A stretch of 64,000 bases of DNA from Promethearchaeota archaeon. Its GTDB lineage: Archaea; Asgardarchaeota; Lokiarchaeia; Sigyniarchaeales; SOKP01. The position numbers and the translations under genes were made by a program. The stretch is taken from positions 440,142-504,141 of the forward strand of contig JAEOUA010000010.1 of assembly GCA_016839555.1 (NCBI GenBank), given 5' to 3'. The notes beneath the pieces are model-generated. The model did no database searches. It was not told the origin of the DNA and saw only the letters and a list, made by a program, of their open reading frames with translations. This document shows positions 6,785 to 11,441 of the stretch, piece after piece (the stretch's first letter is position 1; each line of letters begins with the position of its first letter).

Positions 6785-7585
6785 TCATTTAAATCCTTGT
6801 AAAAACGAATCAACATTCTTACCCAGCACATCATGGTTATATCCGCCTTCCATTAGAGCAAATCTCCGTCCCTTACATAATTTTTCTGAATATTTCTTCA
6901 TCAATTCTCCTAAATGAGTGTAGTCCTCCGGATATAATAAACCACCCCAATCATCTATTCCCTGATCGAATCCCGCTGATGCGGCGAAAATATCAATATC
7001 TTTAAGATTATTCATATAAGTTTCTACTTCTTCAATATATTGTTGATTAGTAGAGGCATCAGGATTCAATATCTCAACTTTAAACCTATCTTTTCGATTT
7101 GCAAGAATGTTAATATTTCCATTTCAAGAGATTATATGAAAGATATAATCTTCCCCTGTGTGCAAATCGAAATCCAATATGAACGCAGATTTGATCTTAT
7201 TTTCAGAAAATAGTCTTAAGAGACTGATACTCATATTGTTAAAGAAGCAAAACCCCCAACAAGAATTGGCAGAGGCATGGTGTCCTGGAGGTCTTATTAA
7301 AGCAAATGTTGGATTTCCTTCATATGCCTCTTCAGCAGCCAAGATGGCACCTCCAGCAGCTAAAGAAGCCATTTCAAATAAGAGATCTCTTCTTTTTATA
7401 TAATTATAATGACTTTCTGTATGCGCTCTGAGAATATTTTCTTTTGAAGCGGGTTCTGGAGTAATTATTTCATATTCGGGGTTTTTAGAGAGTACATTCA
7501 TTATGCTTTGAATCCTTCCGCTTGATGCGGCAGGGTCCATTGCATAGTCAGAAGTATAAAATTTTTCATGAAAAACAATTTTCAT
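6785..7585 (-). CDS. Zn-dependent histone deacetylase-family protein; two exons join(7153..7585,6785..7122), 256 aa after removal of a 30-nt intron
   Basis: RPPGHHA, GFCFFNN, DFDLHTG|DGN, SAGFD, EGGYN motifs; both track ORFs are in the same frame and separated only by a 30-nt insert containing TGA. Confidence 0.9.
7123..7152 (-). other. Putative bulge-helix-bulge (tRNA-type) intron in a protein-coding gene
   Basis: mRNA: ..UUGCACA CAGG GG^A AGAUUAUAU CUUUC AUAUAAUCU CUUG AA^A UGGAAAU..; 4-bp central helix CAGG/CUUG, 3-nt bulges GGA and AAA, 9-bp inner stem; canonical cuts give GGG GAU GGA AAU (G-D-G-N). Confidence 0.82.
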
Positions 7586-11153: not shown

Positions 11154-11441
11154 TTACTCTTCTGGTGGAGCTAAGACGATTTCTATAGAAGAAACATTGT
11201 TAGTTGTACCATCATCACCCTCTAATTTCTCAGTATCTATTCGAATATCTTGATATGTGGTTCCCTTCAAGAAGCGATTTTTCAAAATTTCACAAACATC
11301 GACCGCATGAGAAATTGCTCTACCACGGGCTTTGACCACAACATCTTCACCTTTATTAAGTATCATCATAGCTGCCATTACGTAATTCATAGTAGGGCGG
11401 CGTCCGATATAAACCGCGTTTTCATCCTTATTTTTCGACAT
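11154..11441 (-). CDS. albA: DNA/RNA-binding chromatin protein Alba
   Basis: VYIG.RP.MNYV.A, KARGRAIS.AVDV, VSSIEIVL. Confidence 0.95.
   Translation of the reverse strand: MSKNKDENAVYIGRRPTMNYVMAAMMILNKGEDVVVKARGRAISHAVDVCEILKNRFLKGTTYQDIRIDTEKLEGDDGTTNNVSSIEIVLAPPEE

What the first reader, a model, noticed from the sequence alone, without database searches (positions are those of the whole stretch)
7123..7152. tRNA-type (bulge-helix-bulge) intron inside a protein-coding histone-deacetylase gene
Seen: the two HDAC ORFs are in the same frame. A 30-nt insert (AAGAUUAUAUCUUUCAUAUAAUCUCUUGAA) with an in-frame UGA splits the metal-binding motif DxHxGDG. The mRNA folds into a strict BHB: outer pairing CA/UG (plus AUUU/AAAU), central helix CAGG/CUUG, 3-nt bulges GGA and AAA each 3' of the helix, and a perfect 9-bp inner stem AGAUUAUAU/AUAUAAUCU with a CUUUC loop. 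Cutting after the 2nd nucleotide of each bulge joins CAC ACA GGG G|AU GGA AAU = H-T-G-D-G-N, giving an intact 256-aa enzyme. Established: archaeal EndA cuts BHBs at these positions and RtcB ligates them; the well-known mRNA example is crenarchaeal cbf5. Inference: an Asgard-like archaeon splices mRNA with its tRNA machinery in a gene unrelated to cbf5, and annotation would miscall such genes as pseudogenes.
Basis: partly seen in the sequence, partly recalled or inferred. Interest (0 to 1): 0.95.

Follow-up and report, generated by a model that had tools for sequence, protein, structure and literature searches.

The report
tRNA-type mini-intron in Asgard deacetylase gene
A 30-base insert that breaks the active-site codons of a deacetylase gene in a Loki-type Asgard archaeon has the RNA shape that archaeal tRNA-splicing enzymes cut. 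Comparison with relatives shows the gene stays under selection, so its mRNA is almost certainly spliced, which papers document for only one other archaeal coding sequence (cbf5).

Summary
On the minus strand, an HDAC-family gene (6785-7585) is interrupted at 7123-7152 by 30 nt carrying an in-frame TGA. The RNA folds into a bulge-helix-bulge (BHB). Cutting after the second base of each bulge rebuilds the Asp codon of H-T-G-D-G-N and gives a 256-aa protein.

New evidence:
- About 120 orthologues in the class are uninterrupted.
- 16 loci (GTDB genomes and metagenomes, all in one Promethearchaeia family) carry inserts of 28-33 nt at exactly this site, in five unrelated-looking sequence types. Most shift the frame, and all restore it at the BHB-defined cuts.
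- The wobble base of the Thr codon covaries with the 3' end of the intron (A-U, C-G, U-A).
- dN/dS is 0.03-0.10 in both exons, including between two carriers.
- The insert is present in DNA contigs from three studies.
- The genome encodes EndA alpha and beta, RtcB and archease.

No RNA data exist, so splicing itself is inferred.

This scan had already noted this stretch, the copy in another genome (e1-5542100), and similar mini-introns in other genes of this genome. I re-read one of those myself (moxR).

Verdict: a new member of a known kind (cbf5-type pre-mRNA BHB intron), of high interest.

The parts
6785..7585 (-). Whole interrupted HDAC-family gene (256 codons after removal of the insert)
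   Evidence: Orthologues of 256-258 codons without any interruption.
7153..7585 (-). Exon 1 (144 codons plus the first base of the Asp codon)
   Evidence: dN/dS is 0.03 against carrier L039.
7123..7152 (-). 30-nt BHB mini-intron, single copy in the genome
   Evidence: It is 30/30 identical in metagenome locus L039, and near-identical (31 nt) in L021 from another genus.
6785..7122 (-). Exon 2 (last two bases of the Asp codon, 111 codons, and the stop at 6785-6787)
   Evidence: dN/dS is 0.06-0.07.
7124..7126 (-). In-frame TGA inside the intron. It ends the unspliced reading after 153 aa.
7155..7158 (-). Central BHB helix, exon strand (CAGG: Thr codon positions 2-3 plus Gly codon positions 1-2)
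   Evidence: 91.7% of cells are paired across 12 distinct carriers. The second pair appears as A-U, C-G, U-A or U.G.
7125..7128 (-). Central BHB helix, intron strand (CUUG)
7152..7154 (-). Bulge 1 (GGA). Predicted 5' cut lies between 7153 and 7152.
   Evidence: The cut position equals the junction defined by intronless orthologues.
7122..7124 (-). Bulge 2 (AAA). Predicted 3' cut lies between 7123 and 7122.
7129..7151 (-). Inner hairpin h': 9-bp stem (7151-7143 with 7137-7129) and 5-nt loop (7142-7138)
7159..7160 (-). Outer helix h, 5' strand (CA of the His codon). It pairs with 7121-7120 (UG).
   Evidence: 100% paired. C-G becomes U.G where the His codon is CAU.
7120..7121 (-). Outer helix h, 3' strand (UG)
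7161..7172 (-). Exon-exon clamp, 5' strand (codons of F-D-L-H)
   Evidence: In alignment A2, 3 of its 12 pairs change on both sides.
7092..7103 (-). Exon-exon clamp, 3' strand (codons of L-A-N-R-K)
   Evidence: The Ala codon here is found only in carriers of this intron type.

Best explanation
The 30 nt at 7152..7123 form a tRNA-type (bulge-helix-bulge) intron in the pre-mRNA of a short HDAC-family deacetylase or amidohydrolase.

Proposed mechanism:
1. After transcription, the Thr and Gly codons of exon 1 pair with the last bases of the intron to form the 4-bp central helix.
2. A 9-bp intron hairpin sits on one side of this helix. On the other side lie CA/UG and a 12-bp exon-exon clamp.
3. The genome's heteromeric EndA (a catalytic paralogue plus a structural one) cuts after the second base of each 3-nt bulge.
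4. RtcB, helped by archease, joins the exons and recreates the GAU (Asp) codon that follows the D-x-H zinc ligands.
5. The intron is released, probably as a 30-nt circle.

Unspliced mRNA would yield only a 153-aa fragment lacking the later catalytic elements, so enzyme output depends on splicing.

Shown here: the structure, its covariation, the junction, selection on both exons, presence of the enzymes, and reality of the DNA.
Inferred: cleavage and ligation themselves, the circular product, and any regulatory use.
For: 1. Junction. About 120 orthologues in 127 genomes of the class are uninterrupted and read H-T-G-D-G-N at this point. The BHB-defined cuts reproduce exactly this junction.

2. 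Other carriers. 16 loci carry inserts of 28, 29, 30, 31, 32 or 33 nt at the same nucleotide, in five sequence types. Most shift the frame or carry TAA or TAG. After excision at the BHB cuts, every one has open frames running to the conserved C-terminus.

3. Covariation.
- Alignment A1: 95.6% of cells paired, against 22-48% when the partners are slid. 3 of 8 pairs change on both sides, and 0 of 500 shuffles reach the score.
- Alignment A2, the full structure including the clamp: 97.8% paired, and 12 pairs change on both sides.

4. Selection. dN/dS is 0.03-0.10 in both exons, including the carrier-carrier pairs L001-L039 and L028-L045.

5. Real DNA. The insert is present without gaps in contigs from three separate studies, and no intronless joint was seen.

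6. Machinery. Two EndA paralogues match the two halves of the two-domain model. RtcB and archease are present. 17 of 28 detected tRNA genes have introns.

7. Single copy. This is the only copy of this HDAC subfamily in the genome.
Against: - There is no RNA evidence: no RNA run holds this DNA, so neither the spliced junction nor a circular intron has been seen.
- The central helix has a G.U pair here and a mismatch in two intron types (B and E). Those would need a relaxed-specificity endonuclease.
- The outer helix next to the bulge is only 2 bp, and the clamp sits behind a 16-nt asymmetric loop.
- My structure-only genome scan for ORF-joining BHBs gave no excess over a mirror-geometry control, so shape alone is weak evidence. 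The case rests on the comparative data.
Confidence: 0.87

Rival explanations
1. The gene is a pseudogene, and the insert is a dead insertion that is never removed.
For: - The insert carries an in-frame stop.
- Public gene calls hold the two fragments as separate proteins.
- One relative (L029, G059) really is broken at this place, by a 20-nt deletion of the D-F-D-L-H-T codons.
Against: - dN/dS is 0.03-0.10 in both exons, including between two carriers whose synonymous sites are near saturation.
- All 14 non-redundant carriers keep both exons open to the conserved ends.
- All catalytic motifs are intact.
- Exon-intron base pairs covary.
Confidence: 0.03
2. The insert stays in the mRNA and is handled by the ribosome, through stop-codon read-through or recoding of UGA, or through a gene-60-like translational hop over the hairpin.
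For: In this genome the insert is 30 nt and in frame with a single UGA. A stable hairpin follows a Gly codon.
Against: - Other carriers have inserts of 28, 29, 31 and 32 nt that shift the frame and contain TAA or TAG.
- No orthologue has a 10-aa insertion here.
- A hop from the Gly codon to the next Gly codon would drop the conserved Asp-Gly.
- The take-off and landing codons differ (GGA against GGU) in some carriers.
- Covariation of the Thr wobble base with the intron's 3' end is what a BHB predicts. A hop does not predict it.
Confidence: 0.03
3. The two halves are translated separately and assemble into a split enzyme.
For: A 94-aa ORF with a TTG start (7069..6785) is called by gene finders and is held in public collections.
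Against: - That ORF would lose the 18 codons between 7122 and 7070, including the G-D-G motif. These codons are conserved and in frame from the predicted 3' cut in every carrier.
- The break lies inside the Asp codon.
- The exon sequences form the BHB with the insert.
Confidence: 0.03
4. The insert is removed from the RNA, but by a nuclease and ligase pair other than EndA and RtcB.
For: Nothing specific. Types B and E have one mismatch in the 4-bp helix.
Against: The geometry (4-bp helix, two 3-nt bulges each 3' of its strand, cuts after the second bulge base) is exactly the EndA substrate, and it is what covaries. The genome depends on EndA for most of its tRNAs.
Confidence: 0.03
5. Assembly or sequencing artefact.
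For: None.
Against: - Contigs from three independent studies hold the insert (X1 identical, X3 identical, X5 about 91% identical, all without gaps).
- Metagenome locus L039 has the same 30 nt in a diverged gene.
Confidence: 0.01

Closest known systems
BHB intron in the cbf5 (pseudouridine synthase) pre-mRNA of Crenarchaeota (Watanabe 2002; Yokobori 2009, PMC2738675)
   Same: - A short BHB intron inside a protein-coding sequence.
- The host has a heteromeric EndA.
- The intron is patchy among relatives, with lineage-specific loss.
- Gene finders miscall the gene.
   Different: - A different gene (HDAC family) and a different phylum (Promethearchaeia / Asgard).
- Here the intron is rare (about 5% of genomes with the gene) and exists in five sequence types at one site.
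- A 12-bp exon-exon clamp with compensatory changes accompanies one type.
- cbf5 splicing is shown experimentally. This one is not.
BHB intron in the 5' UTR of HVO_1309 mRNA, Haloferax volcanii (PMC7714728)
   Same: An mRNA substrate of the tRNA splicing endonuclease.
   Different: That intron lies in an untranslated leader and does not interrupt codons. It is shown in vivo and in vitro.
[quoted passage not shown]
   Same: - The same motif, the same predicted enzymes and a similar size.
[quoted passage not shown]
   Different: The host RNA is an mRNA. The exon half of the motif is built from codons (His, Thr, Gly, Asp), and synonymous or even amino-acid-changing sites are recruited for pairing.
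HAC1/XBP1 unconventional mRNA splicing in eukaryotes (IRE1 cut, RtcB/tRNA ligase joining; e.g. PMC4282640, PMC4687415)
   Same: - A small non-spliceosomal intron (26 nt in XBP1) cut by a protein endonuclease at paired structural sites.
- Joining by the tRNA ligase.
- The reading frame changes on splicing.
- An exon-exon RNA 'zipper' holds the ends together.
   Different: The endonuclease is IRE1, which recognises twin stem-loops and not a BHB. That splicing is a regulated stress response, and no regulation is shown here.
Phage T4 gene 60 translational bypass
   Same: A short untranslated gap with a hairpin and a stop codon inside a coding sequence.
   Different: Bypass needs matched take-off and landing codons and would skip the Asp-Gly here. 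It does not explain exon-intron covariation. I considered it and rejected it.

Membership tests
Archaeal BHB (EndA-dependent) intron | Two 3-nt bulges on opposite strands, each 3' of its strand of a 4-bp central helix | tested here: met
   CAGG/CUUG with bulges GGA and AAA. The same geometry holds in all 16 carriers, with one mismatch in types B and E.
Archaeal BHB (EndA-dependent) intron | Flanking helices h (exon-exon) and h' (intron) | tested here: met
   h' is 9 bp. h is 2 bp next to the bulge, plus a 12-bp exon-exon helix behind a 16-nt loop.
Archaeal BHB (EndA-dependent) intron | Cuts after the second bulge base give the functional mature RNA | tested here: met
   The junction equals that of about 120 intronless orthologues. 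All carriers become open frames when so cut.
Archaeal BHB (EndA-dependent) intron | Structure maintained by compensatory change | tested here: met
   3 of 8 pairs change on both sides, and 0 of 500 shuffles reach the score; 12 of 27 pairs change on both sides.
Archaeal BHB (EndA-dependent) intron | Host encodes the splicing endonuclease and the RtcB ligase | tested here: met
   EndA alpha-like and beta-like paralogues, RtcB and archease.
Archaeal BHB (EndA-dependent) intron | Spliced junction and excised (circular) intron present in RNA; cleavage by EndA in vitro | not testable with these tools
   No RNA run holds the stretch.
Histone deacetylase / acetylpolyamine amidohydrolase superfamily (Pfam PF00850) | Match to the family profile above the curated cut-off | tested here: met
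   exon 1 scores 92.7 bits and exon 2 scores 29.9 bits, against a cut-off of 27.9.
Histone deacetylase / acetylpolyamine amidohydrolase superfamily (Pfam PF00850) | Catalytic His-His, the zinc ligands D-x-H plus a later Asp, and the catalytic Tyr in the G-G-Y motif | tested here: met
   These can be read. The intact orthologue aligns at these motifs to HDAC6 catalytic domains. Substrate unknown: no NCBIfam model matched.
Pseudogene | Relaxed selection and decay of the downstream part | tested here: not met
Programmed translational bypass (gene 60 type) | Matched take-off and landing codons, with the product lacking only the gap | tested here: not met
   the codons on the two sides differ in several carriers. 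A hop would also delete the conserved Asp-Gly.

The most novel reading that the evidence does not exclude
The HDAC intron may be one visible case of a population-polymorphic, possibly mobile class of 28-33-nt BHB mini-introns in the mRNAs of Promethearchaeia.

On this reading, the introns move between alleles together with about 80 nt of flanking exon that forms their own clamp. They force coding sequence (synonymous and even amino-acid-changing sites) to co-evolve with the splice structure. They also make the output of many enzymes depend on the tRNA-splicing machinery.

That would amount to a spliceosome-independent layer of mRNA splicing in the closest prokaryotic relatives of eukaryotes.
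Probability: 0.35. Interest if true: 0.9.

Novelty: new member of a known kind. Interest (0 to 1): 0.8.

Why it matters
Papers in the held library document only cbf5 (Crenarchaeota) as an archaeal coding sequence interrupted by a BHB intron, plus one 5'-UTR case in Haloferax (PMC7714728, PMC2738675; searches found no Asgard mRNA case).

This locus matters for four reasons:
- It extends the phenomenon to Asgard archaea and to an unrelated enzyme.
- It offers an unusually rich natural experiment. One insertion site carries five intron types, has closely related intron-plus and intron-minus alleles, shows exon-intron covariation, and has an exon-exon clamp that constrains protein-coding sites.
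- It makes concrete questions testable: how BHB introns are gained and lost in genes, how splicing competes with coupled translation, and whether tRNA-type splicing of mRNAs (as in HAC1/XBP1) has deep roots.
- In practice, gene finders split such genes into fragments, so Asgard gene inventories are distorted.

Tried and rejected
1. RNA evidence. No RNA holder was listed for this stretch, so expression and splicing could not be examined.

2. Structure-only genome scan for ORF-joining strict BHBs. It gave 129 hits, against 127 for a mirror-geometry control. After a start-codon filter it gave 32 sites against 28. Most hits are gene boundaries. The scan recovered this intron but missed the moxR one, so it cannot estimate how many such introns the genome holds. 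An earlier decoy with a same-base pairing rule was unbalanced, and one run timed out.

3. Other copies of the intron in the genome. None were found (blastn-short), so it is not a repeat or MITE family here.

4. Exon-exon clamp as a universal feature. Carriers do have stronger exon-exon duplex energies than intronless orthologues (median about -17.5 against about -10.3 kcal/mol). However, the sequences are related. Some intronless genes (for example L016, sister to a carrier) score as well. The clamp register is shared only by types A and E. I therefore claim the clamp only for those types.

5. L030 (G104) and L029 (G059) as further carriers. Both were rejected. L030 has a 1-nt frameshift in a run of C. 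L029 has a 20-nt deletion.

6. Link to the Alba gene 3.6 kb away. Alba is there but is separated by several unrelated genes. No evidence for a functional link was obtained.

Full report
**What is there.** The minus strand of 6785-7585 encodes one HDAC-family protein that is read in a single frame but stopped by a TGA at 7126-7124. Both halves match Pfam PF00850. The intact orthologue aligns to the catalytic domains of HDAC6 and to bacterial HDAC-like amidohydrolases, with the D-x-H zinc-ligand motif just before the break. The extra DNA is exactly 7152..7123, 30 nt. Deleting it joins G at 7153 to AT at 7122-7121.

**The fold.** The RNA forms a central 4-bp helix between exon bases 7158-7155 and intron bases 7128-7125. 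Two 3-nt bulges lie at 7154-7152 and 7124-7122, each 3' of its helix strand. There is a perfect 9-bp intron hairpin with a 5-nt loop, and a 2-bp exon-exon pairing next to the second bulge.

A perfect 12-bp inverted repeat, 7172-7161 with 7103-7092, closes the whole element in the minimum-energy fold. The same holds in the second genome.

**Comparison with relatives.**
- In 161 genomes of the class, 127 have the gene, and nearly all copies are uninterrupted 256-258-codon frames. They carry no extra residues at this point.
- Interrupted copies occur in G009, G154, G116 (two contigs), G065 and G051.
- A pattern scan of all GTDB species found the same five contigs. Their titles name Promethearchaeia, Promethearchaeota or 'Hermodarchaeota' MAGs.
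- A scan of JGI metagenomes added nine more.
- Together there are 16 carrier loci, 14 of them distinct. All are interrupted after the first base of the same Asp codon, by inserts of 28, 29, 30, 31, 32 or 33 nt. The inserts fall into five sequence types with no obvious similarity to each other.
- Most lengths are not multiples of three, and several inserts contain TAA or TAG. Read-through or a translated insertion therefore cannot explain them.
- Excision at the BHB-defined bonds gives an open frame from the conserved N-terminus to the conserved C-terminal motif in every complete locus.

**Covariation.** The exon strand of the central helix is C-N-G-G, where N is the wobble base of the Thr codon. 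The intron base opposite N follows it, giving A-U, C-G, U-A or U.G.
- Over 12 distinct sequences, 95.6% of cells pair, against 22-48% when the partners are slid by one to three columns. Three of eight pairs change on both sides. No shuffle out of 500 reaches the observed score.
- For the five sequences of types A and E, the full model (clamp, outer helix, central helix, inner stem) is 97.8% paired, and 12 pairs change on both sides. Three of these are in the clamp.
- In the clamp, a synonymous change of the Leu codon in exon 1 is matched by amino-acid-changing substitutions in exon 2 (A-N-R against E-G-Q).
- The sequences are related and few, so these counts are supportive rather than a formal probability.

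**Selection.** dN/dS is 0.03-0.10 in both exons for all pairs where dS is measurable. This includes L001 against L039 and L028 against L045, which are carriers on both sides. The downstream exon, which an unspliced message could not translate, is therefore kept by selection. This excludes a pseudogene.

By contrast, L029 (G059) lacks 20 nt covering the D-F-D-L-H-T codons, and that copy is genuinely broken.

**Reality of the DNA.** Logan contigs from three separate studies cover 7123-7152 without gaps. X1 and X3 are identical to the window, and X5 is a relative at about 91% identity. No contig joins across the insert.

**Machinery.** The genome encodes two EndA paralogues. One aligns to the C-terminal (catalytic) half of the two-domain model, and I read a Tyr, His and Lys in it at the expected catalytic positions. 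The other aligns to the N-terminal half, and I saw no His at the corresponding position. From published work on EndA types, this suggests an (alpha-beta)2 enzyme, the kind with relaxed specificity. That assignment is my inference. RtcB and archease are present, and 17 of 28 detected tRNA genes carry introns.

**Evolution.**
- On the protein tree the carriers are scattered within one family. The outgroup families have none.
- Intronless L016 is sister to carrier L045 (dS 0.05-0.17). Intronless L002 nests with carriers L001 and L039. Precise gain or loss is therefore recent and recurrent, as reported for cbf5 (PMC2738675).
- The type A intron is 30/30 identical between L001 and L039, although their synonymous sites differ at about 50%.
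- It differs by one inserted A and one loop base in L021, from another genus. There, a window of about 90 nt around the intron is 87-92% identical, against about 60% elsewhere.
- The X5 relative has no differences from 7088 to 7168 but about 10% outside that range.
- Either the intron plus clamp is under very strong constraint, or this cassette has moved between lineages by recombination. I cannot separate the two explanations. In L044 the clamp has diverged through compensatory changes, which argues for real selection on pairing.

**Context in the genome.** Earlier notes of this scan list the same stretch, the G009 copy, and similar mini-introns in rnhB, moxR, vhuG, porB, dnaG and top6B of this genome. 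I checked one myself. In moxR, at about position 141,100 of contig C10, the Walker A codons G-E-P-G | T-G-K-T are split by 31 nt. That insert has a CUGG/CCAG central helix, 3-nt bulges and an 8-bp exon-exon helix. My own structure-only scan could not count such introns.

**Literature.** Six full-text searches found only two kinds of BHB intron in archaeal mRNAs. One is cbf5 (Watanabe 2002; PMC2738675). The other is the HVO_1309 leader (PMC7714728, which states that cbf5 was the only earlier case). The 2026 preprint on Asgard tRNA introns does not mention mRNAs.

**Annotation.** Public protein collections hold the 153-aa and 94-aa fragments as separate products. This confirms that annotation miscalls the gene.

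[quoted passage not shown] The comparative evidence is about as strong as it can be, but the intron is not yet seen in RNA.

Noticed in passing
L029 (G059:C266), minus strand near locus position 840: This orthologue lacks 20 nt covering the D-F-D-L-H-T codons exactly where other genomes carry the intron, and its frame is shifted. It is a true pseudogene, possibly the result of an imprecise intron loss.
   Followed up: partly
G000 contig C10, about 141,000-141,500 (minus strand), outside the window: The moxR-like AAA+ ATPase gene is split in three places. At the first, the Walker A codons are separated by a 31-nt insert with a CUGG/CCAG central helix, 3-nt bulges and an 8-bp exon-exon helix.
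   Followed up: partly
G000 contig C1 near 235451 (minus strand) and contig C5 near 141595 (plus strand): Two further strict-BHB candidates came from my scan: 29 nt and 35 nt, with a 6-bp inner stem. Each joins long open frames on both sides (575+428 and 355+554 codons). They were not checked against orthologues.
   Followed up: no
L031 and L026 (G116:C15 and G116:C155); also G151:C65 and G070:C34: One MAG holds two interrupted copies, with 32-nt and 33-nt introns of the same type, plus an extra C-terminal fragment. Two other genomes hold extra C-terminal fragments. This could be duplication, decay or mixed bins.
   Followed up: no
L030 (G104:C191), locus position about 797: A one-base frameshift in a run of C, within the P-G-H-H codons of an otherwise intact, intronless orthologue. 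It is probably a sequencing error.
   Followed up: partly
window 11154-11441 (minus strand): An Alba chromatin-protein gene lies 3.6 kb from the deacetylase gene. It is separated from it by threonine-dehydratase-like, PK_C-like, phosphoribosyltransferase and ATP-cone genes. No link is shown.
   Followed up: partly
whole genome G000: ARAGORN finds only 28 tRNA genes, 17 of them with introns, in a genome that is 92% complete. Further tRNA genes are probably hidden by multiple or non-canonical introns.
   Followed up: no
window 7088-7168, against the contig of run X5: A relative about 91% identical over 317 nt has no difference at all across the intron, both splice sites and most of both clamp strands. 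All 22 listed differences lie outside this range.
   Followed up: partly
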